Part shown: one piece after another, positions 1,730-29,896 of the stretch
Numbering within the stretch: the stretch's first letter is position 1
Layout: each line of letters opens with the position of its first letter
Virus record (IMG/VR): IMGVR_UViG_3300031760_000017
Length of the DNA stretch: 29,896 bases
Source: a virus
Strand: one strand, 5' to 3'
Position numbers and translations under genes: made by a program
Notes under the pieces: generated by a model
The model's input: the letters and a program-made list of their open reading frames with translations, nothing else
Database searches by the model: none
What the model was told of the DNA's origin: nothing

Positions 1730-4356
1730 ATTTAAATAAAGAACGTGTTGAGTTAGGCGACATAGACTTAGATCTTTGCCCTTCAAAACGTCCATTAATT
1801 CTTCAAAAAATAAAAGAAGAACGTGGTCAGAATTTTAATAAAGATATTGATGATTTAAGTAGAAAAAACCTTGGTTGTACACTTATTGCGACTTTTGGTA
1901 CAGAAGGAACTAAATCAGCAGTATTAACAGCTTGCCGCGGTTACCGCTCAGAAGATTTTCCAGACGGGATTGATGTTGATACAGCTCAGTTTTTATCTTC
2001 TTTGATTCCAAGTGAAAGAGGTTTCTTATGGCCTCTTAAAGATGTCGTTTATGGAAATAAAGATAAAGATAGAAAACCAATTACGCCTTTTATTTCAGAA
2101 ATTAATTTATATCCTGGTCTATTAGATATTGCAATGGCGATTGAAGGATTGATAAATAAAAGGTCTAGTCATGCTTCTGGTGTTATTCTTTTTGATGAAG
2201 ACCCGTACGAGTTTGGATGTTTTATGAAAACTCCAAAAGGAGAAATTATAACTCAATGGGATCTTCATAAATGTGAAGCATGTGGCATGACAAAATATGA
2301 TTTCCTTGTAACAGAAGTTCAGGATAAAATTGTTCAAACAATTAAACTTCTTCAAAAAAATAATAAAATTGATAAAGACCTTTCTTTAAGAGAGGTGTAT
2401 GATAAATATCTTCATCCAGAAGTTTTACCTTTAAACGACGAAAAAATATGGAAAGCTCTTCAAAATAATAGCGTTTTAAATGTTTTCCAGTTTGATTCAG
2501 ATGTAGGATCACAAGCCGCAAAGAAAATTAAACCAACTAATATTCTTGAAATGGCGGATGCCAATGGTTTAATGCGTCTTATGACATCTGAGAAAGGCGA
2601 AGAGACGCCTATGGAAAAATATATTCGTTATAAAAATAATATCTTATTATGGTATCAAGAGATGAATCGAGCTGGATTAACAGATGAAGAGCAAAAAATT
2701 ATTGAACCATATTTCAAACAATCTTATGGAGTTCCGCCATCACAAGAGCAATTAATGAGAATGTTAATGGATAAGAATATTTGTAACTTCTCATTAAAAG
2801 AAGCTAATGCCGCACGTAAAATTGTTGGTAAAAAACAAATGGCAAAGATTCCTGAATTACATCAAAAAATCTTAGATACAGCTTCTAGTTCGTCTCTTGG
2901 TAAATATATTTGGAAATGCGGTGTTGGTCCTCAGATGGGATATTCGTTCTCTATTATTCACGCTCTTGCTTATTCTTTTATTGGAGTTCAAACAATTTAT
3001 TTAGCGACTAATTGGAATCCAATTTATTGGAATACCGCATGTCTAATTATTAATAGTGCTTCTCTTGAAGATGAAGATGACGATGAAGATGATGATGAAG
3101 ATAACACTAAAGATAAATCTACTGATTATTCTAAATTAGCAAAAGCTATTGGAGATATAACTTCAAAAGGAATTAAAGTATCATTAATTGATATTAATAA
3201 ATCTGGATATAGTTTTGAACCAGATGAAGAAAATAATGAAATTCTTTTTGGATTAAAAGGTGTTAATAAAATTGGCGGTCCAGTTATTGATAAGATTATT
3301 GGCGGTCGCCCCTACACTGGAATTATTGATTTTATGAATAGATGCCCGCTAAATAAAACTCAAATGATTTCATTAATTAAGTCAGGAGCTTTTGATAAGG
3401 TTGATAATAATTGGGCATCAGAAATCTGTAAAGAAAACCCAAGATATGCAATAATGGCGTATTATATATCAATAGCTAGTGAACCAAAGAAAAAATTAAC
3501 ATTACAAAATTTTAATGGATTATTAAAAAATAAATTAATTCCAGAAAGTTTACTTAAACAACAACAGATTTTTATATTTAATAAATTTCTTAAAGAAAAT
3601 AAAAAAGTTGGTAAATACTATGTTTTTGATGAAGGTTCTTTAAATTTTTATTCTTATTACTTTGATTTAAATGAATTAGATGTTATTAATGGAATTACTT
3701 GTATTCTTCAAAGTAGATGGGATAAAATTTATAAGAGAGAAATGGATGAAGTTAGAGGTTGGTTAAAAGAAAATCAAGAAGAGGTTTTAAATCAATATAA
3801 TAACTTATTATTTAAAGAAACTTGGAATAAATATGCAACTGGAAACGTTTCTGCTTGGGAGATGGAAAGTTTATGTTTTTATTATCATGAACATGAATTA
3901 CTTAATATTGATAATTATAAATATGGAATTGTAAACTTTTCATCTTTATCAGAAGAGCCAGTAGTTGATTATTTCTTTAAGAGAGGAGATAGAAAAATTC
4001 CAATCTTTAAATTATATAGAATTGCTGGAACAATTATTAGTAAAAATAATACTAAAGCATCTATCACCATTTTAACAACAGATGGAGTTGTAAATGTAAA
4101 ATTTACAAAAGAATATTATGCTATGTTTAATCGTCAAATTTCTGAAAAGCAACCAGATGGTACTAAAAAAGTATTAGAAAAAGGTTGGTTTTCTCGTGGT
4201 ACAAAAGTTTTAATCACAGGATTTAGACGAGAAGACACCTTTGTAGCAAAAACTTATAAAGCAACTCCTACTCATCAATTATATAGAATCATCAATGTAA
4301 ATGATAAAAAGATTACCTTAGAACATGAAAGGATAAACGCAAATGTAGAAGATTAA
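1730..4356 (+). CDS. DNA polymerase III alpha subunit, exon 2 (palm/fingers/OB region). It has an acidic low-complexity insert EDEDDDEDDDEDN at about 3058-3100.
   Basis: The ORF 1702..4356 (884 aa) has no in-frame TAG, TAA or TGA. It runs LNKERVELGDIDLDLCPSKR...GVILFDEDPY...QWDLHKCEACGMTKYDFL and has DnaE-like order. It ends with TAA. Confidence 0.85.
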
Positions 4357-5215: not shown

Positions 5216-7130
5216 AAACTTTACGACAGCTTATAATAGATTACAAGCTGAATATGGAACTTAGATTGCAAAAATAAACGGTTTTGCAGATGAGCAACTA
5301 TCTTATAATGATTTTATTAGTAATTTTATAAATGAAGATACCGTTGCGGATGCTAGTATTGATGGTAATTCAAATGTATCTCACAAAGACATTGTTACAT
5401 TACTAAATGAAATGCCTAAATCTCATAGAAAATTATTAGCTTTTAATAAAATTCATTATGAAATGCAGAAAAAATATGGTTTTAAAATAGCTAATGAGTG
5501 GTTAAAACTTGAATGGATGGGTGCATTATATATGCACGATTCTGATACATCTACTTTTAAAAGTTATTGTTTTGCTTATGATTTAAAAGATGTTGCAGAA
5601 AAAGGTTTGTTTTTCTTAGGTAAAAATTTTAATGCAAAACCGCCGCAACATTTAGGGACATTTGTTGATTTTGTAAAAGAATTTATTTCTTATAATAGTA
5701 ATAGAACATCTGGTGCAGTAGGTTTACCTAATTTAATTCCTTATATGTTTTATTTCTGGAATAAAGATATAAAAGAACACTATTGGTTAGGACCGCCAAA
5801 AAAATATGCTATTCAAAATTTTCAAAGATTTATTTATGCAGTAAATCAACCTTATGTAAGAGACGGTTCTCAATCAGCTTTTACTAATACATCAGTATTT
5901 GATCGTCCTTATTTTGAAGCTCTATTTGGAGGAAGTGTTTTCCCAGATGGAAGTTTTATGATTGATTATGAAGATGAAATTATTAATTTTCAAAAATGGT
6001 ATATGGAAACCATGTCTGCTATTCGATCTGAAAATATGATGACTTTCCCAGTAAGCACAATTTCATTGCTATATCAAGATGGTAATTTTGTAGATGAAGA
6101 TTTTGCAAAATGGGCTATTAAGCATAATATGAGATGGTCAGATAGTAATTTATTTGTAGATGATAGTGTTAATAGTTTATCTAACTGTTGTAGATTAAAA
6201 AGTAATATTGATGAACTAGGATACTTTAATTCTATTGGTGGAACCGCATTGAAAGTTGGTTCTGTAAAAGTTAATACTATAAACTTAGCTAGATTAGCTC
6301 TTGATACTGATTCGGAAGAAGAATATTTAAAAGAGTTAAAAAGAAGAACAATTATTTGCTTACAATCTTTAGATTGTGTTAGACACATTATCAAAAGAAA
6401 TGTAGAAAAAGGTTTACTTCCTAATTTTTCTTATGGATTAATAGATTTTGAACATCTTTATAATACTATTGGGTTCTTAGGCATTTATGAAACCATGAAA
6501 GCTTTTAATTATATTAAAGAAGACGAATTTGGAAATATTTTTTATACAGAAGAAGCTTCTAAATTTGGTAAAAAAATCTTTGATGTAATTCATTCAACAG
6601 CAGATGATTTTATTGAAAAAAATCATTTAGATTATAAAATAAATACAGAACAAATCCCTGGAGAAACTGCAGCTGATAAATTAATGAAAAAAGATAAATT
6701 CTTTTATCCAACTGCAACTATTTATGATTTGCCTCTTTATGGTAACCAATTTATCCCTCTTGGAATAAAAACAACATTACAAGAAAGAATTAGAATTCAA
6801 GCTTTATTTGATCATTATTGTAATGGAGGTTCAATTCTACATGCTAATATAGATGCTCCATTTGATAGTTTTGATAAAGCTTGGGATATGGTAAAATACA
6901 TAGCCGATCAAGGTGTAACGTATTTTGCTTTTAATACGAAGATTCAAGCATGTGAGGATAATCATGCTTTTTATGGGACAACATGCCCAATTTGTGGTAA
7001 ACCTATCGCAACAGAATATACAAGAATTGTTGGATTCTATACTCCAATTAGAACATGGTCTACTCATAGAAAACAAGAATATAGTATGAGGAGATGGGAG
7101 AAAATAAATGATAATAAAAGGACTAATTGA
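5190..7130 (+). CDS. nrdD: Anaerobic ribonucleoside-triphosphate reductase (class III RNR) NrdD. The likely start is TTG at 5190 after the RBS aaggag. There is one in-frame TAG at 5262.
   Basis: The track ORF 5412..7130 (572 aa, TAG-free) aligns with T4 NrdD: ...GALYMHDSD (compare GIIHVHDID), the zinc ribbon CPICG, and the glycyl-radical motif RIVGFYTP near the C-terminus. The conserved N-terminal region continues upstream of 5412 through one TAG, back to a TAA at 5172. The stop is TGA. Confidence 0.85.
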
Positions 7131-11098: not shown

Positions 11099-12091
11099 TT
11101 AATCTCTTGATTCATCAAATTCATCTGTCTCACTTCCATTAACAGAGTCCTCATAAGATTCTTCAATAGAAGCTCTATTAGCTGGATGCGGGAAGATAGT
11201 GCTTGTTGTATCTGTTACACCAGTTGAATCATCAACAATTTGAATTGCACAAAGAACTTGTTTCTTTCTATCAAAATAAGTATATCCTGGGAAAGCGTCC
11301 ATAGTAAAAGTAAATGTACTAGGATCTCCAGTAGATGCCATTGAGAAAGTAAAGTTAGATTGAATTTTTACGTTAGGAAGTGTAATATTTGCAGGTAAAT
11401 CTTTTCCGTCTGCCTGACGTCTAAATAAAGTATCTGCTTCAACATAGTAGTATCCAGCAAAATGACCTGCATCAATTTGAAGTTCAGAAACAGTATCAGC
11501 TTTTTTCTTTACATAATAATCAACCATAACTGTTCCATTTGTAGGAGCAGTTCCAGTTCCCGCATATTCAAGAGTTCTTCCTTTGATTGTTTTTGTATTA
11601 GTGTTAGTTGTAGCACTTACTCCATAATCTTTATAAATATCACCAGTTAAATCTCCATACTCGTCAATATTCATAATATACAATGGAGCTGTTGAACAGA
11701 TTTCTTCAGTTGGTTCAAGAGCATCATCTAAATTAATAACTCCAGTTGCGCCAATTGTTGCCATAGATGTTTGATGGAAATGAATAAGATCACTTGTATT
11801 CTTCGCTCCCTTTACAACACCAGCACCAGAAAGCATAGCAAAACTAATTGGAGAAAGAAGCGCATCTTCAACAGTGAATGTTAAAGTTTTTTCACCTTCC
11901 CAAGAAATTAAACGAGTATTTCCGCGACCACCTGTTGCGTACACTGTAGTAGCCGCACCTTCTAATGTAGAGGTTTTTGCAGAGTCAAGATAAAAAACTG
12001 GCTGTCCTTGTTTAAAAATAACATTACCAATTTTCTGATCATTCTTTGCTCTAAAGACTACATTAACAATTTCACGTACACCAAATTTCAT
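11099..12091 (-). CDS. Major virion structural protein (330 aa, TAG-free), probably the major tail protein or tube. It has a Thr/Gly-rich Ig-like C-terminal region.
   Basis: It has a strong RBS aaggagg and a long TAG-free ORF. It is flanked by its own terminator. Its position is downstream of the capsid and connector genes. The composition (TxT repeats, beta-rich) is typical of major tail proteins. Confidence 0.55.
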   Translation of the reverse strand: MKFGVREIVNVVFRAKNDQKIGNVIFKQGQPVFYLDSAKTSTLEGAATTVYATGGRGNTRLISWEGEKTLTFTVEDALLSPISFAMLSGAGVVKGAKNTSDLIHFHQTSMATIGATGVINLDDALEPTEEICSTAPLYIMNIDEYGDLTGDIYKDYGVSATTNTNTKTIKGRTLEYAGTGTAPTNGTVMVDYYVKKKADTVSELQIDAGHFAGYYYVEADTLFRRQADGKDLPANITLPNVKIQSNFTFSMASTGDPSTFTFTMDAFPGYTYFDRKKQVLCAIQIVDDSTGVTDTTSTIFPHPANRASIEESYEDSVNGSETDEFDESRD

Positions 12092-16111: not shown

Positions 16112-17209
16112 TTAGTTTCCCCATGATGGGTCTTGGTCTAGTCCAGGCATAGCCTTAACTAAACTAACATTCTTATATACACAAATACCAGGATTAATCA
16201 TATAAGTAGCAACACCAAGTTTTTGATAAGTCTGGATTTCTGTTGACCAATCGCGGTTTTCAAAAGATTTTACTTGAGCAGCTCCTTCAAAAGCTACTTT
16301 AACAGGTTTCTCTGCTCCAGTAGGAATAATCCAAGCGTATGATGGATCAATTACTTTTTCACTATTAGTTTCATCTGTAAAAGACTGCGGAAGAATAATT
16401 ACTTGATGTCCTTTGTAAGTTCCTAAAGAACCATTATTCCAAATCTGTTCTTTCATTCCATCAGACATCGCATTCCAGTTTAATGAAGCCTGGTTGTTAG
16501 CAATAGTTGTAGGAGCCATTGTTGCAGCAAATTCAAATGTACAATAAATTGTACTCTTACCATAAACGTCTGCTGTCATAAGAAGCTGATCCATTGCCGC
16601 TTCATTAAATCCAGTCTGAGCTGTTTTATTTGTAGCAGGAATATTTAAAACTGTAGCTTCAAGAGCTTTTGCAATTTCACGATAAACTGCTTCATCCATT
16701 CCTTCAAGTACAAGACTATAATAATCATTCATAGTCATACGACCATCAAGAAGTTCTTCCCATTCAATACGAGAAGCGCCTCCATAAGCAGCTGTCGGTA
16801 CTTCAAGTGAATATCCATCAAGCTTGAAGACTTCATATCTACCTGCTAAACCAACTCTTGTTACAAACTGTTTAGCACGTTTCTTAGAAGCTTCACTGAT
16901 TCTTACTTTATAAACAGGTCTTGTTCCTTGCGCGAATGTACGAACATCAGCAAACTGTCCATAATTCTGAAGGACCTTTTGCGGAAGAACTTCTGTAAGA
17001 CCTACTTCAATAAGTGTATAAATAAGATTTTTATTTTCTCTAAAATCTTGAGGAGTCGCCCCAAGTTCGTTTAATTCTTTAATAAAAGTTTTATTCAGAG
17101 CTTCTGCTGAAAGCTTTTCTCCACCAAAAGAAAAAGCAGTAGAAGGATTTAATGATGCTTTCGCATTGGCTCTAGCTAATTCAATAAGCTGATCTCTTGT
17201 TAATGCCAT
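16112..17209 (-). CDS. Major capsid protein (HK97 fold, 365 aa). It is TAG-free.
   Basis: Track ORF with a strong RBS aaggagg. The length and sequence character are typical of phage major capsid protein. It is followed by a terminator and preceded by the scaffold-like and head genes. Confidence 0.8.
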   Translation of the reverse strand: MALTRDQLIELARANAKASLNPSTAFSFGGEKLSAEALNKTFIKELNELGATPQDFRENKNLIYTLIEVGLTEVLPQKVLQNYGQFADVRTFAQGTRPVYKVRISEASKKRAKQFVTRVGLAGRYEVFKLDGYSLEVPTAAYGGASRIEWEELLDGRMTMNDYYSLVLEGMDEAVYREIAKALEATVLNIPATNKTAQTGFNEAAMDQLLMTADVYGKSTIYCTFEFAATMAPTTIANNQASLNWNAMSDGMKEQIWNNGSLGTYKGHQVIILPQSFTDETNSEKVIDPSYAWIIPTGAEKPVKVAFEGAAQVKSFENRDWSTEIQTYQKLGVATYMINPGICVYKNVSLVKAMPGLDQDPSWGN

Positions 17210-19133: not shown

Positions 19134-19325
19134 AATAAAAATTCTCCTTTTTCATTTCCATATATAATAAAAATTTGAATAATTTTCTTAATAACTTTTG
19201 TCCAAAAAATTTTAATTCATACTTTCACGATTTTGAATTGTTTTTGTCGATTTCTAATCATCTGGTTTTTCAGGTCTTCCCGCACCCTATTTTGAATCTC
19301 CGCCAGTTTTATTACGATTTAAAAC

Positions 19326-20753
19326 CTATGCATTCATAGTACTAGACATTAATGGTGGAATAAAGACGTTAACTAAATCAAGAATATCATTTTCAAAATA
19401 AGCTGTTGCTAAAATAGCGCTTTGAGATTGTCCAAGAGCTATTTGTGGTAACATTTTAGAATAACCTAATTGAGTATGTTCTTTATATTGTTTAGCTAAA
19501 TCTTTATAATTATAAATAGTTGTAGGAAGAATTTGTGCCCTGTAATTAACCTTTTTTGGACTCTTATTATAAGGTATTAATAAAGTATTTAAGAAAGTTT
19601 CAAATTGTTGAATTAAGTTCCACATTGAAGCTTCATCATTTAAAATAGATTTTTCAAGAGCAATATTACCATCAGTATTAAATTGCATTTGTGAAACACC
19701 AGCTTCATTATAAACTGTACGTTCAACTTTTTCTAAATCATCTGTTGTTGTAGTGGTATGATTATCTGCCATATCCGCAACTTCAACATCAGCAAAAGTT
19801 GTTAAAACATCAATTCCAATTGCTTTAGACAACATTTGTACTGCATTATTATGAAGTTGCTGAGCTTCATCTACATCAAATACTAGATCACCATTTTTAT
19901 CAATAGGCATTTTCTGAATAATAATTTTTAATAATTGTTGTTGCATCTTGCGGCGATCAAGGTCTTGAGCTGCATCTAAATCAATTATAGCAGGGATAAC
20001 CGCCATAAATGGTGGAAAATCCTATCCATTTAAATTAAATTTTATAACAGAACCAATAGGAAGTAAATACCATCCAGACTCGTCTCCAGGAAAATCAGGT
20101 TTTAATTTTCCTTGTTTATATAGTCTATATCCTTTTTCAAACTCTTGCGGAAAAATCTTTAACATTCGAAAACGTTGCTCTGAATCTGTGAACATATCAT
20201 CAAAATATTTCATATTAAATTCAACAAGAGGCTGCCCACCTGCCGCAATATATCTGGATCTGCAATATCTTGGCGGCAACTATTGAACTATTACTGTTCC
20301 ATTCTTAGCTATTAAATAACCATAATAACAGCCATTTTTTACAACTTTTAAAGCTACATCACCAAAAAATTTTTTAGCTTCAAATTTATCTAAATAATTT
20401 AAAACTTGATTGAACCCCTCAAGAAGTTTATCTGGTTTCATAGAATCATTATAATATGGTGTTACTAACCAATCATATCTATACATATAAGCCATATAAC
20501 GACATAATCTTTGATAGATACCACTAATCTTATAAAAATAATTAGAAATATCTCTCATCTTATTTAAATCGCCATAATGAATAGCTCTTAAAACCTGCTC
20601 TTTATTTGCTAAATATGGATTAACTCTTTGTAAATCTCCTAGTTTTAAAATTGCATCAGATACAGTTTTTACTCCAACTCGAATTTTTGCAAAATCAACT
20701 GGTATATATCCAGTAGCCTAATTAGGAATTTGGTAATCTTCAGTTCCAATCAT
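19326..20753 (-). CDS. Portal protein (about 475 aa) with three in-frame TAGs.
   Basis: The track ORFs 19326..20006, 20022..20279 and 20280..20558 are collinear in one frame, separated only by TAG. Its size and position immediately after terminase fit a portal. Confidence 0.7.
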
Positions 20754-20815
20754 ATTAAAGCCTTTTTTCTTTATCTATGCCATTCGATTTATCAACTTTA
20801 GATACCTCTCCTTCT

Positions 20816-21178
20816 TTACCACCCATACGCCGCCTTAAGAATATAATCATAATTTACACGTGCCTAATCCCAATAAGGAATAATAACTAATTTAATATCA
20901 TGATCTCGACAATACTATCTTTTTCTCATATCATTATACTGTTGTTTTCTTAATCCATTATAACCACCAAATTTATCTTTAGCTTCATAATGTTGAATTC
21001 CTTGAAATTCAATTAAAAAATCAATATTATGCTAATCATCAAAAACAGCAAAATCAAATCTTAATGGACGTCCGGTATTACTTACTAAATCTGGAAAAGA
21101 GTATTCTTCTACGAACTCTAAACCAGAATCTTGTAATATTTCTTCTATTTTAATTTCTCCTCTGGATGCTCGCATATT
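20816..21178 (-). CDS. Free-standing PD-(D/E)XK (Vsr/DUF559-like) homing-endonuclease-like protein (about 120 aa) with three in-frame TAGs.
   Basis: The motif RFDFAVFDD-TAG-HNIDFLIEFQGIQHY resembles the D...(D/E)...IEYDG.QH core of the Vsr/DUF559 endonuclease family. It is inserted between the terminase and portal genes with its own RBS gaaggag. Confidence 0.55.
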
Positions 21179-21236
21179 TTTTCTCCTTCACTATATTATA
21201 TAAAAAAACCTTTTATAAAATTAATAACTTTCGACC

Positions 21237-22641
21237 TTAATTTTGTGTAAAAAATAAAAAGTCTGATATATTTCTTTTTCTTCTTTTCTTATTTAATTCT
21301 TCTTCATAACGTATATAATAAAGTCCATAAATAAAAGCAGAAAATTTATCTTTTTTAATACCTCTATTACTTTGCTTTAAAATAATATTAACGCCCTAAT
21401 TTTCTTCTACAAGATTTAACATTTGCTATTTTAAAATAGATGTTAAAATAAAAGGACGTAAATATTCATTCCTTTCATCCATATTCATATTTTGTCCTTG
21501 TTTAGTAGACATCAATTTTGTTTTTGCTAAACTTTCATCTATTAAAAATCTAATTTTGCCACTAAACATTTGGGTTTGAGCATAACTATACGCTTCTGTA
21601 TTAATTGGTGCGTTAGCTTTTATTATATATAATATATCACGCTATGTTTCTGGAGTTACAAATTTTTTATATTCTGGATATTCATCTGTATTAAAAACTC
21701 CAAAAGGTGGTAAATACTATCCATCCGCAGTTTCTTGAGCTTTTATTAAATAATCAATTAAACCAACACCTAATCCATTACCGTCAATAGCAATTCGTTT
21801 AGGTTTATACTTATAATATAAGTGTTTTATATGAATACATTGAGTCTCAAAATGCTAAGCATCATAAGTATAAATATTAACAAGAGTCTTATGAGCAGCG
21901 CCTTGCACTTGCGGCGTTACCTTAAAAACACAAATTTCAGTTGTACATCCTATACGCCCAACGTCCACTCCAAATACATAATATGCGGTTTTAGAAGATC
22001 TTCCGCTATACTCATACTATGGTTGCAATAAAACTCGATATTTATCAAACTTCTCAGAAGAAAAGAAAGCATTTTCTACATCTCCTGACCAAATACTCCG
22101 ATATTCTCTATTAAAAGACTAATCATTAAATGTTCCTTGTAATCTTAATTGTTCAACAAAATCTTCATCTAATAATCCAGAAACAACAGGAGTTTCATAA
22201 GTTCCACCCATTATCATATACTAATCTGGATCAAGAATAGAATTAATCAAGATCTATATCAGTTTGTGATATGCGAATGAATTTTTCCATCCTGCGGTGG
22301 TAATATAGATCTGTGACTTATTAACATTTTCTTCCTTGTGGCGGCTGCCATCTGAAAGACGTCTATCAACGTTAGTAGTAGGAATGATAACTTCATTTAA
22401 AATATCCCCATCAATAAGAACACACTATTCCATTAATCCACCTGTTCGACGTTGACCTCTAGAAGATTGTCTTGCCGCAAGAATATCAATAGTTGAGCCA
22501 TTCTTAAAAACGTATTTTACATTGTCTTTTGATTTTGTAGAAACACCTCTGTCCCAATTAATTTCATCATTTAAACCAGGAATAAGTCTACATATCTACT
22601 AGATTTTCGCGACTGTAATCGAGGCTGCTTGCTACTTACCA
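21237..22641 (-). CDS. Terminase large subunit, exon 2 (ATPase remainder plus nuclease domain). It has about 13 in-frame TAGs.
   Basis: It starts GK-TAG-QAASITVAKI (Walker A continuation). It includes FKNGSTIDILAARQSS (compare T4 gp17 LDNGSSIGAYASS). GGLME-TAG-CVLID may be Walker B. The nuclease motifs YYVFGVDVGRIGCTTEICVF and IAIDGNGLGVGLIDYL are present. Confidence 0.8.
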
Positions 22642-23567
22642 CCTGTGGTTACAAACAAATGTGAGTTAGGATATAAAATGCATCTTATCATTAATGCCAT
22701 CATTGACAAAAAAGACTTTGAATAAGCTACTTCTATTTAATATAATTCGTTAAATTATATTCGTATATACGCTCTATGTTCCCATAGAGATTAGACTATA
22801 TCATCATCCTTTAAACTTGGAAGTAAAGGAGCCTACCGCTTCGAGGAAACTTTTCCTCTACTCTCTTTCGAGATAGTCGTTGAACTTTTTATTTATAAGT
22901 AAAAGTTTTTCTTTCCGCTTTACCTAACGGAGTGTCTATATCTTTAGTAAGATAAGTCCAAGTTTCTCTTCTTCTTATTTTAGCTATAAAGCTTCTTACA
23001 GGAAAGCCAGTGATTTTAGAAATTTCTTTATCAGTATATTTATTACTTTTTAATAAATCTATTACCAACTTTGCATCTTTTTCAGTATAATGAGATAGAT
23101 TAGTTTTTTCTCCTTGTAAATATGAGAAATCAGTTAATCCAGTTTTTATGGCGTGGTGTATATTTTCTTGTGAAGTTACCCACTATAAATTATCTAATAC
23201 GTTATTCTCTTTATTACCATCTATATGATTTATTTGTAATTTTTCCATTCCTTCTATCGGTTTTAATAACATCATTAATAATCTATGATATTGAATAGAT
23301 GTTGTCCCCCCGCCTTTTTTCATTAAACTTACTCTCATATAACCATTATGATTTTTATTTATTTTAATATAATTTCCTGTATTGACATTACGAATTTTAC
23401 CCGTGTCATCAATAACATAACAGTCTTTAATATCAGGGTAGAGATCGCTAATTCTCTTCTCCATAAAAATCTCCTTATAAATAACTTAGCTGCTGATAAT
23501 CCGTTCTGGACTTCCCAGCAATTCAATAGGTTTCCTTTGAGAATATTACTATTCTCACCCCGCACTC
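22642..23567 (-). mobile_element. Group I intron in the terminase large subunit gene, just upstream of the Walker A lysine. The junctions are uncertain by a few tens of nt.
   Basis: Exon 1 reads ...FYQRVFLRIVMRHRYVYATFPRR and then breaks. The frame resumes about 0.9 kb downstream at (I)GK. The intron carries an HNH ORF with its own RBS. On the minus strand it has the same R/S-like elements as the polymerase intron: aacgactatc (plus 22872-22878) and gatatagtct (plus 22794-22803). A P9-like hairpin is present. A G precedes the proposed 3' splice site and a U ends exon 1. Confidence 0.7.
22889..23464 (-). CDS. HNH homing endonuclease (HNH_3 type, about 191 aa) inside the terminase intron. It has one in-frame TAG.
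   Basis: NHNGYMRVSL...QYHRLLMMLL...INHIDGNKENNVLDNL-TAG-WVTSQENIHHA matches the H-N-H motif (HxDGNxxNN...NLxW.T..EN). The RBS aaggagat is present. The track ORF 23183..23464 is the N-terminal part up to the TAG. Confidence 0.8.
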
Positions 23568-23818
23568 ATTCTACGGGGGAATGTTGCATATACGTATCTA
23601 TGTCTCATAACTATCCGCAAAAAAACTCTTTGATAAAAAAGAAATTCAAAAGTACTATCTTTACCTTTAATAAAATCAACAAAAATATCTGGATACTATC
23701 TAAAATAAGCAATAAGATCTCTTAATTGATCCATATCTTGTAAAAGTCTTTCTTCTGATATTCCTTGCTTTCGATATTCTCTTTCAGAAGTTATTTGTAG
23801 TAATTCTTTTAACTTCAT
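23568..23818 (-). CDS. Terminase large subunit, exon 1 (N-terminal about 83 aa). It has one in-frame TAG.
   Basis: The ATG overlaps the upstream TGA stop (ATGA). The sequence runs MKLKELLQITSERE...FYQRVFLRIVMRHRYVYATFPRR and leads into the Walker A motif. Confidence 0.7.
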
Positions 23819-26475: not shown

Positions 26476-26676
26476 ATGATTACAGAAAAAACTATTAAAA
26501 AGATGAGTAATATTTTTTGTGAAGAAACTGATTGTGATTATTGTCCTTTTACTGAAATGTGCACCCCAATTTGGGAGCTTTCAAAAGACTGGATGAATGA
26601 TGGAACAAGAGCAATATGGAAGAGCGGATTTCAGAAATTTTTTGAAAAGAAACTGGAAGAGGAGCTGGAAGAATGA
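26476..26676 (+). CDS. Hypothetical small protein (66 aa) with a CxxC...C motif.
   Basis: Track ORF with a strong RBS. Its stop overlaps the next start. Confidence 0.5.
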   Translation: MITEKTIKKMSNIFCEETDCDYCPFTEMCTPIWELSKDWMNDGTRAIWKSGFQKFFEKKLEEELEE

Positions 26677-27101
26677 TTTTAGCTGTAACAGGACATCGTC
26701 CGCAACGATTAAAAGGACAAGAGCAATTGATAAAAGAATGGGCGGTCGAGTAGCTTACTCGCCTTCAGCCAGCACTGGTTATTGACGGAATGGCACAGGG
26801 AACTGATCAAATTATAGCAACTGCCGCGAAAGAATTGGGGATTCATGTTCTTTGTTGTTATCCATTTCCTAAGAAATATTATCATCCAGTTGAACAATGG
26901 ATTATGGAAGACAACCCATTTGTCTTTGTTTCTAAAGAATATTCAAAAAAAGCATATTATGTTAGAGACTGTTGGATGGTAGATCATGCAGATGCTCTTT
27001 TATGTGTTTGGGATGGAATAGGTAGCGGAGGAACTTTTTTAACTAGGAATTACGCTCTTAAAAAGAATAAACAAATTATTGATTATAAAGGTTTAAGGTG
27101 A
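26673..27101 (+). CDS. YoqJ/DUF1273-like protein (SLOG-superfamily Rossmann fold, about 142 aa). It has one in-frame TAG.
   Basis: The N-terminal MILAVTGHRPQRL and the IDGMAQGTDQIIATAA motif are characteristic of the DUF1273 (SPbeta YoqJ) family. The ATG overlaps the upstream TGA. The track shows only the fragment 26790..27101 after the TAG. Confidence 0.6.
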
Positions 27102-27106
27102 TAAAA

Positions 27107-27283
27107 ATGAAAGTCAAAGCAAATTATAATATTACCCTTGATGAGGGAAGTTTTATTAAAGGTAAAGAATATAATTATAAAATAACTAATGAAGGAAAAT
27201 ATCTTGTGACAACAGAAGAAGGAATGGAACAGGATTTAAATTTTGCAGAATTTGATATATTCTTTACACCTTTGAAAAATTAA
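27107..27283 (+). CDS. Hypothetical small protein (about 58 aa).
   Basis: Track ORF 27098..27283. The ATG at 27107 has the better RBS (aaggtga). Confidence 0.4.
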   Translation: MKVKANYNITLDEGSFIKGKEYNYKITNEGKYLVTTEEGMEQDLNFAEFDIFFTPLKN

Positions 27284-27348
27284 AAAATTTATAATATAAT
27301 ATACTTGTAAATGATAAATAAATAAAAATATTAAAGATTAAAGAGAAA

Positions 27349-27399
27349 AGGAGGCAGCAGGTATGAGACGGTCATATACCTGCAAAACCGCATGGTAAC
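27349..27399 (+). promoter_or_regulatory. Leader region containing an RBS, an 11-codon uORF (MRRSYTCKTAW) and a hairpin. The uORF stop overlaps the start of the downstream gene (ATGGTAA).
   Basis: The RBS aaggagg is 8 nt before the ATG at 27364. An inverted repeat caggtat..atacctg brackets the uORF start. The TAA of the uORF overlaps the ATG at 27392, which has no RBS of its own. This is a termination-reinitiation or attenuation-like arrangement. Confidence 0.4.
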
Positions 27400-27781
27400 A
27401 ACAGAATTTATTGTAAATGAAGAGAAGCGTACTGTAGTTTGTATTATTACAACAGTAGATGACATGGCAGATAGACTTGCTAAGTATGGTCTTGCGGATG
27501 ACCAGTATGATGACATTGAAGATATTCGTGTTTATAAGGGAATTGCAAAATGCTGCCCGCAGGATACTTGGGATGAGTCTTTTGGAAAGAAGCTTGCCGA
27601 GTGGAGAGCTGCGCGGAAGCGTCAGGTGGATATTAATAATGAAATTTCTGATTATATTGTTAGTATGTATGAAAGACTTGATACACTTGATATTTATGGT
27701 AGACTAAAGAACCCAACCCCGCCTAAGGGATATTGGTATGAAGATCCTGAAGTTGAAGCCGCAAATAAAGGACTAGTGTAA
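27392..27781 (+). CDS. Hypothetical protein (129 aa). It has elevated GC content and is TAG-free.
   Basis: Track ORF. Its codon usage (gcg, ccg, cag, ctg) differs from the rest of the window. Confidence 0.5.
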   Translation: MVTTEFIVNEEKRTVVCIITTVDDMADRLAKYGLADDQYDDIEDIRVYKGIAKCCPQDTWDESFGKKLAEWRAARKRQVDINNEISDYIVSMYERLDTLDIYGRLKNPTPPKGYWYEDPEVEAANKGLV

Positions 27782-28182
27782 TGGAAGAGAGATTAACAAG
27801 AGAAACAGCATTAAATCTTCATAGACAGATGTGGGCAGATATGCTTATAAAATTAGGTAATAACCCTGATGGTCTAGCTCGCACAATGTTTAAGCTGGAT
27901 TGGATTCGAACTCATGGCTATAAGGATGTTGAATGTAATTGTTTTTTGTGCGAATATGATTACCAACAGCGGAGAAGGGGAGACGAGTGGTGTGACTTCT
28001 GTCCAATTGACTGGTCTTCTCTTTCTGCGGGAGAAGAGGATGATTTGCTTTCTCTTCCTGGGGAAGAAGTGGCAAGTTGCGGAGATAGATATATTTATGG
28101 TAACCCTGATTCTTATGAAAGTATATGGAGATCCGCACCAATTAGTGAAATTTTAAATTTACCTGAAAAAGAAGGAGTATAA
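27781..28182 (+). CDS. Cys-rich putative zinc-binding protein (133 aa).
   Basis: Track ORF with motifs CNCFLCEYD, WCDFCPIDW and SCGDRY. Its start overlaps the upstream stop (TAATG). Confidence 0.5.
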   Translation: MEERLTRETALNLHRQMWADMLIKLGNNPDGLARTMFKLDWIRTHGYKDVECNCFLCEYDYQQRRRGDEWCDFCPIDWSSLSAGEEDDLLSLPGEEVASCGDRYIYGNPDSYESIWRSAPISEILNLPEKEGV

Positions 28183-28184
28183 AA

Positions 28185-28511
28185 ATGATTGTAAACCCGT
28201 GGATTTTTTATTTAGCTGGAATATGTGATAATTTAGGATTTGTTGCTATACTTGCTGTTCTTTTTATTTGTATTTATCTGATAATTAGAATAGCGGGTTA
28301 TTACGCTGATGAAATGCCCCATTGGTGGGATAAAAATTTTAAAATTGCGACAATTGTTGGACTTTTACTTTTAGCCCTTGCGGTAGCTATTCCTTCACAG
28401 AACACTTGTTATAAAATGATTATTGCATCACAGGTCACCGCAGAAAATTTGGATAAGGTAGAAGACACTATTGAAAGAATTGCCGATTATGTGGCGGATA
28501 AGGATGAATAA
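28185..28511 (+). CDS. Membrane protein (108 aa) with two predicted TM helices. It is holin-like in size and topology.
   Basis: Track ORF with hydrophobic segments FYLAGICDNLGFVAILAVLFICIYLII and IATIVGLLLLALAVAI, and a charged C-terminus. Confidence 0.5.
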   Translation: MIVNPWIFYLAGICDNLGFVAILAVLFICIYLIIRIAGYYADEMPHWWDKNFKIATIVGLLLLALAVAIPSQNTCYKMIIASQVTAENLDKVEDTIERIADYVADKDE

Positions 28512-28513
28512 AA

Positions 28514-28666
28514 ATGGAGATATTTTTACTGTTACTTTGGATTTTTGTTGGAGCAATTAATATTGCGGGGGCTGCCGCCAATGGCGGGGTAGTTTCTATT
28601 ACTAGTTATATTTGTTGCTGGATTGTGTTAATTGTATTTTTAACTATAAGATGTTTTGATAATTAA
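28514..28666 (+). CDS. Small membrane protein (50 aa).
   Basis: ATG 3 nt after the upstream stop. MEIFLLLLWIFVGAINIAGAAANGGVVSITSYICCWIVLIVFLTI is one or two hydrophobic helices. Confidence 0.4.
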   Translation: MEIFLLLLWIFVGAINIAGAAANGGVVSITSYICCWIVLIVFLTIRCFDN

Positions 28667-28681
28667 GAGGAGTTTTAAAAT

Positions 28682-28843
28682 ATGAATGAAAAAAATGTTG
28701 TAATTAGAGAAGACGAAAAGAATGTTGTTTGGTGTCCGACGTGCGGTGCGGCGTTTTATAAGGATTCCCCCAATTGGGGTAGAGAAACTTGCGGGCATTG
28801 CGGAACGGTGCTGAATTGGGAAAATGTGGAAAAAGAGGATTAA
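28682..28843 (+). CDS. Small zinc-ribbon protein (53 aa).
   Basis: RBS aagaggag. The CPTCG and CGHCG pairs are 20 residues apart. Confidence 0.45.
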   Translation: MNEKNVVIREDEKNVVWCPTCGAAFYKDSPNWGRETCGHCGTVLNWENVEKED

Positions 28844-28846
28844 GTC

Positions 28847-29209
28847 ATGTATTATGGAAATAAAAGTTCACATTGGATAGCGGCGCTGGCTCTGTTTTTT
28901 TACGCTATTTTGATAGTAGGACTTATTGCTTTCTCACTTTGGAGACCTATTGATAAAGTTTCTAATCTACGAGAAGAAACAATTGTAGTTACGGATAAAA
29001 TGGTAAAAGATGACGTTTATTTGATTTATTCGGAAGATACTACGTATGAAATTACTGATAGTTGGCTGTATCCAAGATTTAATTCGTCTGATTTATATGG
29101 AAAAATTCAGGTCGGAGAGAGTTACAAGATAACAGTTGGCGGAAGCAGAATTCCATTTTTGAGTTGGTATCCAAATATATATAGAGCGGATAAGATAAAG
29201 AAGGGATGA
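28847..29209 (+). CDS. Membrane-anchored protein (120 aa) with an N-terminal TM helix and a beta-rich C-terminal domain.
   Basis: Track ORF with hydrophobic segment WIAALALFFYAILIVGLIAFSLW. The stop is TGA. Confidence 0.5.
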   Translation: MYYGNKSSHWIAALALFFYAILIVGLIAFSLWRPIDKVSNLREETIVVTDKMVKDDVYLIYSEDTTYEITDSWLYPRFNSSDLYGKIQVGESYKITVGGSRIPFLSWYPNIYRADKIKKG

Positions 29210-29211
29210 TA

Positions 29212-29246
29212 AGAAGGGATGATAAATCATCCCTTCTTTTTTTGAT
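29212..29246 (+). terminator. Rho-independent terminator ending the rightward operon.
   Basis: Stem gaagggatga / tcatcccttc with loop taaa, followed by tttttttg. Confidence 0.75.
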
Positions 29247-29252
29247 TTGTCG

Positions 29253-29361
29253 TTTTTTGGTTTTGGAGAGGGAAATATCGCTTTTTGGATTTGAAAATTG
29301 ATTTGGAGAGGGAAATGTATGTCCGTTTTTTAGTTTTGAAAATTGATTTGGAGAGGGAAAT
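29253..29361. repeat. Tandem direct repeats. There are three copies of ttggagagggaaat. The last two are embedded in an exact 30-bp repeat tttgaaaattgatttggagagggaaatgt (29287-29316 and 29332-29361).
   Basis: The repeats are read directly from the sequence. The spacers are 17-25 nt. Confidence 0.8.
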
Positions 29362-29599
29362 GTGGAGCACATACCCTTTTATCATTTTTTAAAAAAATTT
29401 TTCCCGAAATATACCCCCCACATAACATTCAGGGAGTGGCGCTAGCTGAGAAAAATGTATGAGCACGCTGGTAGAAAACACGGCCCTAAAAATAGCGCAA
29501 CAAAATAATAGCTGGGGATATGAATAAAGATAACATCAAAGCATTGTCTTCTCATTTGATCTCTTCTCTATTTGAAGTAGATAATTCGTCGTCGCGAGA

Positions 29600-29896
29600 G
29601 CGTCCGCTGGAAAGACGCTTGAGCGACGCTTTTGCACTTTAACGCGTTAAAGCGTTAAAACTTTAGCGCGTTAAAGCGTAACACTGCACCACGTTAAAGT
29701 CCTAAAACTCTGCCACTTCACCGCGCTAAAGTGGTAACGCGTTAATACTTTAACACGGTGAAGTGGTAACGCGTTAATTTCAGCAAGTTGCACAAAAGTC
29801 TATCCAGCTTTTTGTGCAATCTGACGAAAATATTTTTTGTGCAAACCGCACAAAAACGAGCATGAGCTTTTGTGCAAAATGACGAAAATTATTTTT
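29600..29896. repeat. GC-richer region dense in short palindromes and repeats. It includes the perfect 16-bp palindrome ctttaacgcgttaaag (about 29638-29653) and gtggtaacgcgttaat x2. It also includes ttttgtgcaa(a)tgacgaaaat x2, a copy in inverted orientation, and the palindrome ttttgtgc-N5-gcacaaaa.
   Basis: Read directly from the sequence. No ORF is plausible here. It is a candidate origin, terminus or regulator-binding array. Confidence 0.6.

What the first reader, a model, noticed from the sequence alone, without database searches (positions are those of the whole stretch)
20816..21178. Free-standing PD-(D/E)XK (Vsr/DUF559-like) endonuclease gene wedged between terminase and portal
A 120-codon ORF with the ...FDFAVFDD...IEFQGIQHY core sits in the terminase-portal junction. 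That position is normally a tightly coupled gene pair. Together with the two intron-borne homing endonucleases, it gives three different endonuclease classes within 23 kb. It may be a free-standing homing endonuclease targeting the terminase or portal gene of related phages.
Basis: partly seen in the sequence, partly recalled or inferred. Interest (0 to 1): 0.55.

Follow-up and report, generated by a model that had tools for sequence, protein, structure and literature searches.

The report
Fixed Vsr-like nuclease gene between terminase and portal
The small gene between the phage's DNA-packaging genes is real and encodes the cutting domain of a homing-endonuclease family, but every relative carries it and keeps it under selection like a core gene, so it looks domesticated rather than mobile.

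Summary
The ORF is real: minus strand 20816-21175, 119 codons plus TAA, with its own AAGGAG ribosome site. It is open only if three in-frame TAG codons are read as sense.

The "free-standing homing endonuclease" reading holds only as ancestry:
- It is the nuclease domain alone, without the zinc-ribbon or NUMOD DNA-binding part that mobile relatives carry.
- It sits at this junction in 98 of 98 relatives found through their portal gene.
- It is absent from 7 outgroup SPbeta-like phages, where terminase abuts portal.
- Its tree matches the portal tree.
- Its dN/dS is 0.06-0.17, like portal and terminase.

True mobile endonucleases in the same junction are rare (3/79 and 1/79).

Best reading: one ancient insertion, then retention as a late-expressed nuclease of the packaging module. 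Its exact role is untested.

Side observation, possibly more important: in this clade TAG behaves as a glutamate codon, not glutamine. Conserved Glu columns hold 264 TAG; conserved Gln columns hold 3.

The parts
20816..21175 (-). ORF119: a stand-alone Vsr/EDxHD-type PD-(D/E)XK nuclease domain of 119 aa plus a TAA stop.
21183..21188 (-). Shine-Dalgarno sequence AAGGAG, 7 nt upstream of the ORF119 ATG. It lies in the 61-nt spacer after the terminase stop codon.
   Evidence: Read directly from the sequence.
21032..21034 (-). In-frame TAG, codon 48. Non-TAG homologs have N, E or D here.
20915..20917 (-). In-frame TAG, codon 87. Non-TAG homologs have E in 59 of 61 cases.
20864..20866 (-). In-frame TAG, codon 104. 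Non-TAG homologs have E in 72 of 74 cases.
21053..21055 (-). Codon D41 in RFDF, on strand beta-2. It is the predicted Mg2+-binding aspartate, equivalent to Vsr D51 and I-Bth0305I D196.
   Evidence: Invariant in 80 of 80 clade members and across 34 diverse family members. The mapping rests on secondary-structure register and the residue roles given in PMC3239194.
20990..21010 (-). Codons E56-F-Q58-G-I-Q-H62 (IEFQGIQH), spanning strand beta-3 and the following turn. E56 corresponds to the extra conserved acid of EDxHD enzymes. Q58 corresponds to Vsr H64 and I-Bth0305I N208. H62 corresponds to Vsr H69 and I-Bth0305I H213.
   Evidence: At E56, 75 sequences have GAA or GAG and 5 have TAG; none has CAA or CAG.
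20930..20932 (-). Codon D82 in QQYND, on helix alpha-2. It is equivalent to Vsr D97 and I-Bth0305I D222.
   Evidence: Invariant in 80 of 80 members and across the diverse family.
21155..21157 (-). Codon E7 in SRGE, on helix alpha-1. It is equivalent to Vsr E25 and I-Bth0305I E170.
   Evidence: 76 sequences have GAA or GAG and 4 have TAG. hhalign places E7 opposite Vsr E25, but that alignment is not statistically significant.
19212..20783 (-). Portal protein gene, the downstream neighbour. It is 523 codons with 7 TAG, and its start lies 32 nt after the ORF119 stop.
   Evidence: phrog_2739 E=1.5e-82. It matches annotated portal proteins of related phages.
21237..22727 (-). Large terminase exon 2, the upstream neighbour. 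The exon start is approximate. It contains the Walker B motif GGLME[TAG].
   Evidence: An intron-less relative, L003, has one continuous 578-aa terminase.
22728..23572 (-). Intron-like insert in the terminase gene, with approximate boundaries. It carries an HNH_3+NUMOD4 endonuclease ORF at 22889-23464.
   Evidence: Pfam hit. Exon junctions were inferred by comparison with L003. The relative MT836163.1 is about 820 nt shorter here. No Rfam group I intron hit reached the gathering threshold.
23573..23818 (-). Large terminase exon 1, with an approximate end.

Best explanation
ORF119 is a real, late-expressed gene. [quoted passage not shown]

This domain normally forms the C-terminal cutting module of phage homing endonucleases, whose N-terminal zinc-ribbon or NUMOD repeats bind DNA. 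An ancestor of the phAss-1 / Enterococcus EF1-like group of SPbeta-related phages acquired it once, in the otherwise tight terminase-portal junction. The donor was probably a homing endonuclease. Since then it has been inherited vertically with the packaging genes and kept under strong purifying selection, with the Vsr-type active site intact.

That part is shown. What follows is inferred. The protein is an Mg2+-dependent DNA endonuclease that now serves the phage itself. D41 and D82, with E7 and E56, would hold the metal, and H62 would activate water, as in Vsr and I-Bth0305I. It is made together with terminase and portal, once TAG becomes readable. It has no DNA-binding domain of its own. 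It would therefore act on DNA presented by the packaging machinery, or on DNA structures rather than sequences. Possible tasks are helping to cut, trim or debranch concatemers. This would parallel the conserved HNH nucleases that sit next to terminase genes in HK97-like and Skunavirus phages.
For: **The gene is real and constrained.**
- It has 3310 homologs, the best 120 all 111-123 aa (nearly all 118-120).
- All 80 clade members are intact, with 41 invariant residues.
- dN/dS is 0.06-0.17, equal to portal and terminase, and its dN tracks portal dN in every divergence bin.
- Between the window and phage EF1 it is 53.5% identical. Portal is 31% and terminase 37-49%.

**Fold and active site.**
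- The AlphaFold2 model has pLDDT 94.8 and an a-bbb-a-b core.
- D41, E56, H62 and D82 are invariant across 34 diverse family members, and E7 is nearly so. They match the residues described for Vsr and I-Bth0305I (PMC3239194).

**Ancestry from homing endonucleases.**
- At 40-50% identity most homologs are 230-500 aa proteins with the domain at the C-terminus, after CapR/DUF4379 zinc ribbons.
- One example is the intron-encoded gp002 inside the Staphylococcus phage SEP1 terminase gene.
- BFVD structural matches include proteins named 'Group I intron-associated VSR homing endonuclease'.

**Fixed and vertical.**
- It is present in 79/79 plus 19/19 portal-seeded loci.
- Five of six more distant stand-alone homologs are at the same position.
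- Seven outgroup phages lack it and have terminase next to portal.
- In the portal tree the carriers form one clade, and the ORF tree is congruent.
- There is no sharp identity peak at the ORF of the kind that recent homing would leave.

**Contrast within the same data.** Full-length mobile endonucleases in the same junction are sporadic: 3/79 between terminase and ORF119, and 1/79 (a GIY-YIG) between ORF119 and portal.

**Late co-expression.** The ORF has 3 TAG in 119 codons, similar to terminase (13 in 488) and portal (7 in 523).

**Precedent.** A conserved HNH nuclease next to the terminase genes, HrdP, cuts DNA non-specifically and is essential for virion maturation (PMC12967558).
Against: - No biochemical or genetic data exist for any member, so nuclease activity and any link to packaging are inferred.
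- The active-site mapping rests on fold similarity and secondary-structure register. It does not come from a residue-level superposition, and sequence profiles do not connect the family to Vsr.
- Position 58 is Q here, where mobile relatives have D or N and Vsr has H.
- The terminase keeps its own nuclease motifs (read from the sequence), so there is no obvious need for a second nuclease.
- Gene adjacency to terminase and portal could simply be the scar of where a homing endonuclease landed.
- Seven related phage lineages package DNA without this gene.
Confidence: 0.5

Rival explanations
1. It is still an active, selfish free-standing homing endonuclease, or a marker-exclusion nuclease. It would cut the terminase-portal junction of co-infecting relatives that lack it and be copied in by repair.
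For: - It belongs to a nuclease family used by intron-borne and free-standing phage homing endonucleases. PMC3239194 notes free-standing Hef-type members.
- It interrupts a junction that is tight in the outgroups.
- The catalytic residues are kept.
- The same junction is a landing site for other mobile endonucleases.
- I-Bth0305I reads its target mainly through the region around the cut, so a catalytic core could carry some specificity.
- Synonymous divergence of the ORF is somewhat lower than that of its flanks among close relatives: 0.60 against 0.83-0.92.
Against: - It is present in 98/98 relatives, and no empty site was found in the clade.
- Its tree is congruent with the portal tree.
- Purifying selection has held over a divergence at which the portal is only 31% identical. 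A fixed selfish endonuclease is expected to decay (established knowledge of the homing cycle).
- It has no DNA-binding module, unlike the sporadic full-length relatives in the same junction.
- The identity profile shows no sharp peak with decaying flanks.
Confidence: 0.15
2. It is an active nuclease kept for a role unrelated to packaging. Examples are degrading host or competitor DNA, countering a host defence, or processing RNA. Its position would then be only historical.
For: - It has the nuclease fold and conserved active site.
- There is a weak hit to a defence-system nuclease model, NsnC, at E=0.023.
- Seven related lineages do without the gene, which suits an accessory role.
Against: - The position between terminase and portal is conserved even at 45% identity.
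- Its TAG content matches the late packaging genes, whereas host-takeover nucleases are usually early.
- The PADLOC hit is not significant.
Confidence: 0.2
3. It is a catalytically dead nuclease fold, reused as a DNA-binding or adaptor protein of the packaging or assembly machinery.
For: - Inactive PD-(D/E)XK folds are common (PMC3424549).
- Position 58 has changed from D/N/H to Q.
- The C-terminal helix motif Y109-D110-Y111-I112 is almost invariant and could be an interaction surface.
- If TAG were read as Gln, E7 or E56 would be Q in 8 of the 80 relatives.
Against: - D41, H62 and D82 are invariant in 80/80 members, and E7 and E56 are never replaced by any ordinary non-Glu codon.
- The TAG codons at E7 and E56 are best read as Glu. 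That leaves the full catalytic set intact in all 80 members.
Confidence: 0.1
4. It is not a functional gene: a pseudogene, or a chance ORF broken by three stop codons.
For: Under the standard code the ORF ends after 47 codons.
Against: - TAG is a sense codon throughout this genome.
- There are thousands of full-length homologs, and dN/dS is about 0.1.
- The structure prediction is confident.
- The ORF has its own ribosome-binding site.
Confidence: 0.01

Closest known systems
I-Bth0305I and the EDxHD family of homing endonucleases (PDB 3R3P; PMC3239194)
   Different: I-Bth0305I is 266 aa, with an N-terminal NUMOD/helix-turn-helix DNA-binding region. It sits in a group I intron and is mobile. 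ORF119 is the catalytic domain alone, lies between genes, and is fixed in its clade. No sequence-level match was detected.
Phage endonucleases with zinc-ribbon (CapR/DUF4379) repeats plus a C-terminal DUF2726-like domain. Examples are Staphylococcus phage SEP1 gp002 inside the terminase gene, and PHROGs 559, 9084 and 7140.
   Same: These are the closest sequence relatives outside the stand-alone group, at 40-50% identity over the whole ORF119 length. They are often inserted in or next to terminase genes.
   Different: They are 230-500 aa and have DNA-binding repeats. They have D or N where ORF119 has Q58. They are sporadic: 3/79 and 1/79 in this same junction.
Vsr very-short-patch repair endonuclease (PDB 1CW0)
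   Different: Vsr is a 156-aa cellular repair enzyme that nicks at T:G mismatches. It has a zinc site, intercalating tryptophans, and F62 where ORF119 has E56. The Pfam Vsr model does not hit ORF119.
DUF559 (PDB 3HRL) and DUF2726 (PF10881) families. These form group 58 of the PD-(D/E)XK classification in PMC3424549.
   Different: ORF119 itself hits neither model. Both families are of unknown function and mostly bacterial.
Conserved HNH nucleases of packaging modules: Skunavirus HrdP (PMC12967558), and HK97 gp74 (the latter from my own knowledge)
   Same: The comparison is a working analogy only. Each is a small nuclease of a homing-endonuclease-type family. Each is conserved rather than sporadic, is encoded next to terminase or portal genes, and lacks sequence specificity of its own.
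   Different: They have an unrelated fold (beta-beta-alpha-metal HNH). For ORF119, neither essentiality nor interaction with terminase has been tested.

Membership tests
PD-(D/E)XK (restriction-endonuclease-like) superfamily | An alpha-beta-beta-beta-alpha-beta core, with acidic residues on strands 2 and 3. | tested here: met
Vsr-like / EDxHD nuclease group (Vsr, DUF559, DUF2726, I-Bth0305I) | The closest structural neighbours are members of this group. | tested here: met
Vsr-like / EDxHD nuclease group | The composite active site: Glu (helix 1), Asp (strand 2), a polar residue or His (strand 3), His, and Asp (helix 2). | tested here: met
   E7, D41, Q58, H62 and D82, plus E56, are conserved. 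Their positions match Vsr E25/D51/H64/H69/D97 and I-Bth0305I E170/D196/N208/H213/D222. This match is by secondary-structure register, not by residue-level superposition.
Vsr-like / EDxHD nuclease group | A significant match to the curated sequence models (Pfam Vsr PF03852, DUF559 PF04480, DUF2726 PF10881). | tested here: not met
   ORF119 hits no Pfam or NCBIfam family. PDB sequence and profile searches are empty. hhalign against a Vsr sequence recalled from memory was not significant. Only homologs reach roughly the DUF2726 cutoff.
Homing endonuclease (functional class) | A DNA-binding module giving a long recognition site (NUMOD, helix-turn-helix or zinc ribbons in this family). | tested here: not met
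   The whole 119 aa is the catalytic core. Mobile relatives carry 100-400 extra N-terminal residues with DUF4379/CapR zinc ribbons.
Homing endonuclease (functional class) | A sporadic presence/absence pattern among close relatives, with a phylogeny incongruent with the host genes. | tested here: not met
   It is present in 79/79 and 19/19 portal-seeded loci. Its tree is congruent with the portal tree. dN/dS is 0.06-0.17.
Homing endonuclease (functional class) | It lies in an intron or intein, or as a free-standing insert between conserved genes that are adjacent in genomes lacking it. | tested here: met
   Terminase and portal are adjacent in 7 outgroup phages that lack the ORF, 12-24 bp apart in six and overlapping in one. 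This shows an insertion, but only at the level of an ancient ancestor.
Homing endonuclease (functional class) | It cleaves the empty allele near its own insertion site and is inherited preferentially. | not testable with these tools
   This needs purified protein and mixed-infection crosses. No empty allele exists among close relatives.
Packaging-associated accessory nuclease (HrdP / HK97 gp74 type) | Conserved gene adjacency to terminase or portal across a phage lineage. | tested here: met
Packaging-associated accessory nuclease (HrdP / HK97 gp74 type) | An HNH (beta-beta-alpha-metal) catalytic motif. | tested here: not met
   The fold is PD-(D/E)XK. The relation is therefore an analogy at most, not membership.
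Packaging-associated accessory nuclease (HrdP / HK97 gp74 type) | It is required for DNA maturation or packaging and interacts with terminase. | not testable with these tools
   This needs a knockout in a culturable relative (Enterococcus phages EF1, H1 or VRE9) and interaction assays.

The most novel reading that the evidence does not exclude
The catalytic domain of a homing endonuclease was captured by the phage and became an obligatory second nuclease of the DNA-packaging motor. It would be a Vsr-fold counterpart of the HNH-terminase partnership. It would have been retained for a time long enough for the portal to diverge to about 31% identity, in phages infecting hosts from Enterococcus to gut Clostridia.
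Probability: 0.3. Interest if true: 0.6.

Novelty: new variant of a known kind. Interest (0 to 1): 0.4.

Why it matters
If the reading is right, this is a clean natural example of a selfish homing-endonuclease domain turned into a core phage gene. It can be dated to one insertion, and mobile cousins are still landing in the same junction for comparison. It can be tested directly, because culturable Enterococcus phages (EF1, H1, VRE9) carry a 53%-identical copy at the same position.

In practical terms, databases label these proteins 'homing endonuclease' or 'hypothetical'. That label hides the fact that they behave as a conserved member of the packaging module in a large group of gut phages.

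The side observation may matter more. In this clade TAG appears to encode glutamate, not glutamine. If so, automatic code-15 translation puts a wrong residue at every recoded site of these phages, including the catalytic Walker B glutamate of the terminase. It would also mean that sister clades of one phage group reassigned the same stop codon to different amino acids.

Tried and rejected
**Sequence routes to a named family mostly failed.**
- Pfam and NCBIfam found nothing significant for ORF119.
- PDB sequence and profile searches were empty.
- PADLOC gave only a non-significant hit.
- A homolog search seeded with the SEP1 C-terminal domain returned a single protein and did not deepen the alignment.

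**Tests for signs of recent homing.**
- A sliding identity profile across terminase, ORF and portal showed only a mild rise at the ORF, with no peak and decaying flanks.
- I considered whether ORF119 replaces a decayed terminase nuclease. I rejected this because the terminase keeps its nuclease-domain motifs (read).

**Other searches.**
- Rfam found no group I intron at gathering threshold, so the terminase and DnaE inserts are called intron-like from exon comparison only.
- The search for a suppressor tRNA failed. There is none in the window. None was found in about 55 kb (four stretches) fetched from the near-identical contig IMGVR_UViG_3300021400_001206. None was found in any window-clade locus among the 211 fetched; the only tRNA-Sup(CTA) is the known one in the phAss-1 locus L125.
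- The phAss-1 suppressor tRNA resembles none of that phage's own tRNAs closely enough to be informative.
- The first attempt at the regional alignment timed out and was rerun with faster settings.

Full report
**1. What is in the sequence**

The finding lies on the minus strand. The ORF starts at the ATG at 21175-21173 and ends at the TAA at 20818-20816, giving 119 sense codons. Both quoted motifs are present.

Codons 48, 87 and 104 are TAG. Under the standard bacterial code only a 47-aa ORF exists. This is a property of the whole genome, not a defect of this gene. Treating TAG as sense raises the summed length of ORFs of 100 or more codons from 17.6 kb to 30.9 kb. It also restores continuous terminase, portal, scaffold and tail genes.

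An AAGGAG ribosome-binding site lies 7 nt before the ATG, in a 61-nt spacer after the terminase stop. The portal start follows 32 nt after the ORF's stop.

- The portal gene is at 19212-20783 (phrog_2739, E=1.5e-82).
- The large terminase is in two pieces, about 23573-23818 and 21237 to about 22727.
- The pieces are separated by an insert of about 845 nt that carries an HNH_3+NUMOD4 ORF.
- A GIY-YIG ORF interrupts the DnaE gene at 1040-1684.

**2. Which phage this is**

Neighbouring gene products of relatives match the Pfam families YonG_N, YonD_N and YonB of Bacillus phage SPbeta.

The closest named relatives are phage phAss-1 (NCBI 'Caudoviricetes code 15 clade', portal 38% identical) and Enterococcus phages EF1, EF5, H1 and VRE9 (portal 31%). 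More distant are Brevibacillus phage Sundance, Bacillus Tsamsa-like phages, Staphylococcus 'SPbeta-like' phage and Lactococcus phage P1048. The phAss-1 paper describes this monophyletic group and its TAG recoding (PMC10607447).

**3. What the protein is**

Sequence models give little:
- There is no Pfam or NCBIfam hit.
- There is no PDB sequence hit, even with profiles.
- PHROGs annotated 'homing endonuclease', 'HNH endonuclease' and 'intron encoded nuclease' hit strongly, at E=3e-28 to 1e-16. ORF119 covers only an internal or C-terminal part of those longer profiles.

An exhaustive search found 14,058 representative clusters. Above about 50% identity, the full-length hits (those not cut short at a TAG) are about 117-161 aa. 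At 40-50% identity most are 230-500 aa, with the domain at the C-terminus. Those longer proteins carry N-terminal CapR/DUF4379 zinc-ribbon repeats, and their C-terminal domain scores at about the threshold of DUF2726.

An AlphaFold2 model has pLDDT 94.8. It was built on P0001, which is 97% identical to ORF119, because the tool refuses the TAG-containing translation. It shows helix, three strands, a long helix and a strand.

- RAP domains next.

The published PD-(D/E)XK classification places Vsr, DUF559, DUF2726 and I-Bth0305I in one group (PMC3424549). The closest viral structure models include 'DUF2726 domain-containing protein', 'Homing endonuclease' and 'Group I intron-associated VSR homing endonuclease'.

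The residues described as catalytic in Vsr and I-Bth0305I (PMC3239194) have positional equivalents in ORF119:
- E7 on helix 1.
- D41 on strand 2.
- E56 and Q58 on strand 3.
- H62 just after strand 3.
- D82 on helix 2.

D41, E56, H62 and D82 are invariant across 34 diverse family members. D41, Q58, H62 and D82 are invariant in 80 of 80 clade members.

This mapping rests on fold and register, not on a residue-level superposition. The precise family is the Vsr-like/EDxHD/DUF2726 group.

**4. Is it a mobile element?**

To avoid circularity I collected relatives through their portal gene, not through the ORF.
- All 79 informative IMG/VR loci, with portals 63-90% identical, carry the ORF between terminase and portal.
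- So do all 19 loci found with the phAss-1 and EF1 portals. These include a third lineage, L111-L113.
- Five of six more distant stand-alone homologs (45-51% identical) have the same neighbours.
- Seven outgroup phages lack it: Sundance, Staphylococcus SPbeta-like, Tsamsa, KKP_3916, P1048, FADO and phi36. In six of them the annotated terminase stop lies 12-24 bp from the annotated portal start; in phi36 short annotated ORFs overlap the junction and the portal ORF reads directly on from the terminase.

In a portal tree the carriers form one clade, and the ORF tree has the same topology.

The ORF is at least as conserved as its neighbours:

| Comparison | ORF119 | Portal | Terminase |
|---|---|---|---|
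| Window vs EF1, identity | 53.5% | 31% | 37-49% |

Its dN/dS is 0.06-0.17, like portal and terminase, and its dN rises in step with portal dN. A sliding identity profile shows only a mild rise at the ORF.

The same dataset contains true mobile endonucleases in this junction, and these are rare:
- A 272-301-aa zinc-ribbon plus Vsr-like protein lies between terminase and ORF119 in 3 of 79 loci.
- A GIY-YIG protein lies between ORF119 and portal in 1 of 79 loci.
- Intron-borne versions lie inside the terminase gene of a few loci.

ORF119 behaves quite differently from all of these.

**5. How it most likely works**

Shown:
- There was a single ancient insertion into the terminase-portal junction.
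- Inheritance has been vertical.
- Purifying selection is strong.
- The Vsr-type catalytic constellation is intact.
- There is no DNA-binding module.
- The TAG content is typical of the late packaging genes.

Inferred: the protein is an Mg2+-dependent DNA endonuclease that benefits the phage, made together with terminase and portal. Lacking its own DNA-binding domain, it would depend on partners or on DNA structure for targeting.

I favour a role in DNA processing linked to packaging. This is by analogy with conserved HNH nucleases next to terminase genes. One of them, Skunavirus HrdP, cuts DNA non-specifically and is essential for virion maturation (PMC12967558).

I put this at about 0.5, including the weaker claim of 'a phage-serving nuclease of the late module'. 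The rivals are:
- A nuclease kept for another role: 0.2.
- A still-selfish homing endonuclease: 0.15.
- A catalytically dead adaptor: 0.1.
- Not a gene: 0.01.

The main weaknesses are these. There are no experiments. The terminase appears to keep its own nuclease motifs. Seven related lineages manage without the gene.

**6. Comparison with what is known, and novelty**

ORF119 works like, and descends from, the catalytic module of EDxHD/Vsr-like homing endonucleases. It fails two defining features of a homing endonuclease that could be tested here: a DNA-binding module and a sporadic distribution. I therefore do not file it as one.

Databases label members 'homing endonuclease' or 'hypothetical protein'. 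I found no description of a fixed, single-domain form tied to the packaging module, but the literature search was limited.

I rate it a new variant of a known kind, of moderate interest. It is testable in culturable Enterococcus phages.

**7. Side observation: TAG looks like glutamate, not glutamine, in this clade**

While checking the catalytic residues I saw that every 'Q' at E7 and E56 in relatives is a TAG codon and never CAA or CAG. The invariant glutamines Q58, Q61, Q78 and Q79 are never TAG.

I then compared eight gene families across 33-80 relatives:

| Column type | GAA | GAG | TAG | CAA | CAG |
|---|---|---|---|---|---|
| At least 90% Glu | 3482 | 791 | 264 | 13 | 4 |
| At least 90% Gln | 5 | 1 | 3 | 2011 | 678 |

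Using only the ten non-recoded relatives as the reference, 37 of 68 Glu-conserved columns carry TAG in a recoded relative. None of 34 Gln-conserved columns does (Fisher p=2.8e-9).

In the window, the codon after GGLME in the terminase is TAG. It aligns with the second acidic residue of the Walker B motif, which is Glu in all 43 non-TAG relatives. That Glu is essential for ATP hydrolysis (the role is from general knowledge of these ATPases; the column data are).

In the sister clade the pattern differs. In the phAss-1 homolog of ORF119, TAG sits at the invariant Q61, Q78 and Q79. This fits the published Gln assignment for that phage.

A survey of recoded phages reports only TAG-to-Gln and TGA-to-Trp reassignments in phages that differ from their host (bioRxiv 10.1101/2021.08.26.457843).

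I could not find the suppressor tRNA, so the mechanism is open.

If TAG is Glu, ORF119 residues 48, 87 and 104 are Glu. That matches the family consensus, and all 80 members then keep the full catalytic set.

Noticed in passing
Whole window. Examples are the TAG at codon 93 of the terminase exon-2 ORF (about 22427-22425, minus strand) and ORF119 codons 48, 87 and 104. Also loci L011-L090.: In this clade TAG behaves as a glutamate codon, not the glutamine of code 15. Columns conserved for Glu hold 264 TAG against 17 CAA/CAG. Columns conserved for Gln hold 3 TAG against 2689 CAA/CAG. Against non-recoded relatives only, 37/68 Glu columns and 0/34 Gln columns carry TAG (p=2.8e-9). The terminase Walker B Glu is a TAG in the window. 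The sister phAss-1 clade puts TAG at invariant Gln positions instead. The held literature reports only TAG-to-Gln in phages.
   Followed up: partly
Window 1-29896. Also contig IMGVR_UViG_3300021400_001206 (loci L208, L017, L128, L211).: No suppressor tRNA, and almost no tRNA at all, was found in the window or in about 55 kb (four stretches) fetched from a near-identical genome. The only tRNA there is a tRNA-Lys(UUU). phAss-1, by contrast, has a cluster of 32 tRNAs that includes Sup-CTA. How TAG is decoded here is unknown.
   Followed up: partly
L012 3297-4115, L021 3210-4115, L023 3188-4093. These correspond to the spacer at window 21176-21236.: In 3 of 79 relatives, a 272-301-aa free-standing endonuclease is inserted between the terminase stop and the ORF119 start. 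It has zinc-ribbon repeats and a Vsr-like domain 39-42% identical to ORF119, and its stop overlaps the ORF119 ATG. It is a sporadic, presumably mobile cousin of ORF119 in the same junction.
   Followed up: partly
L027 2372-3070. This corresponds to the spacer at window 20784-20815.: One relative has a 232-aa GIY-YIG endonuclease inserted between ORF119 and the portal gene.
   Followed up: no
Window 22728-23572 (minus strand). Also L072-L074 and L106.: The terminase gene is split after ...YATFPR / AYSKSFLS... by an insert of about 845 nt carrying an HNH_3+NUMOD4 ORF. Relatives are intron-less (L003, MT836163.1) or carry a different endonuclease (zinc ribbon plus Vsr-like) inside the terminase gene. 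Rfam detected no group I intron at gathering threshold.
   Followed up: partly
Window 705-1716 (plus strand).: The DNA polymerase III alpha (DnaE-like) gene is interrupted between 704 and 1717 by an insert carrying a GIY-YIG ORF (1040-1684, Pfam E=5.5e-8). The ribozyme was not characterised.
   Followed up: no
Window 16112-17209, 11099-12091, 1717-4356 and 5412-7130.: The major capsid protein, a 330-aa structural protein, DnaE and NrdD have no TAG codons at all. Neighbouring late genes have up to 13. TAG use is therefore strongly gene-specific.
   Followed up: no
Window 26600-29896.: The right end of the window switches to the plus strand. It has higher G+C (0.31-0.36 against about 0.28), positive GC skew and essentially no TAG codons. 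In the related contig, the region beyond it carries repeated strong sigma-70-like promoters (TTGACA...TATACT). It is probably an early-gene block.
   Followed up: no
L129 9507-9836 (IMGVR_UViG_3300029904_000002).: ARAGORN called a tmRNA gene (tag peptide ANRKVAMAA) on a 165-kb viral contig distantly related to the right end of the window.
   Followed up: no
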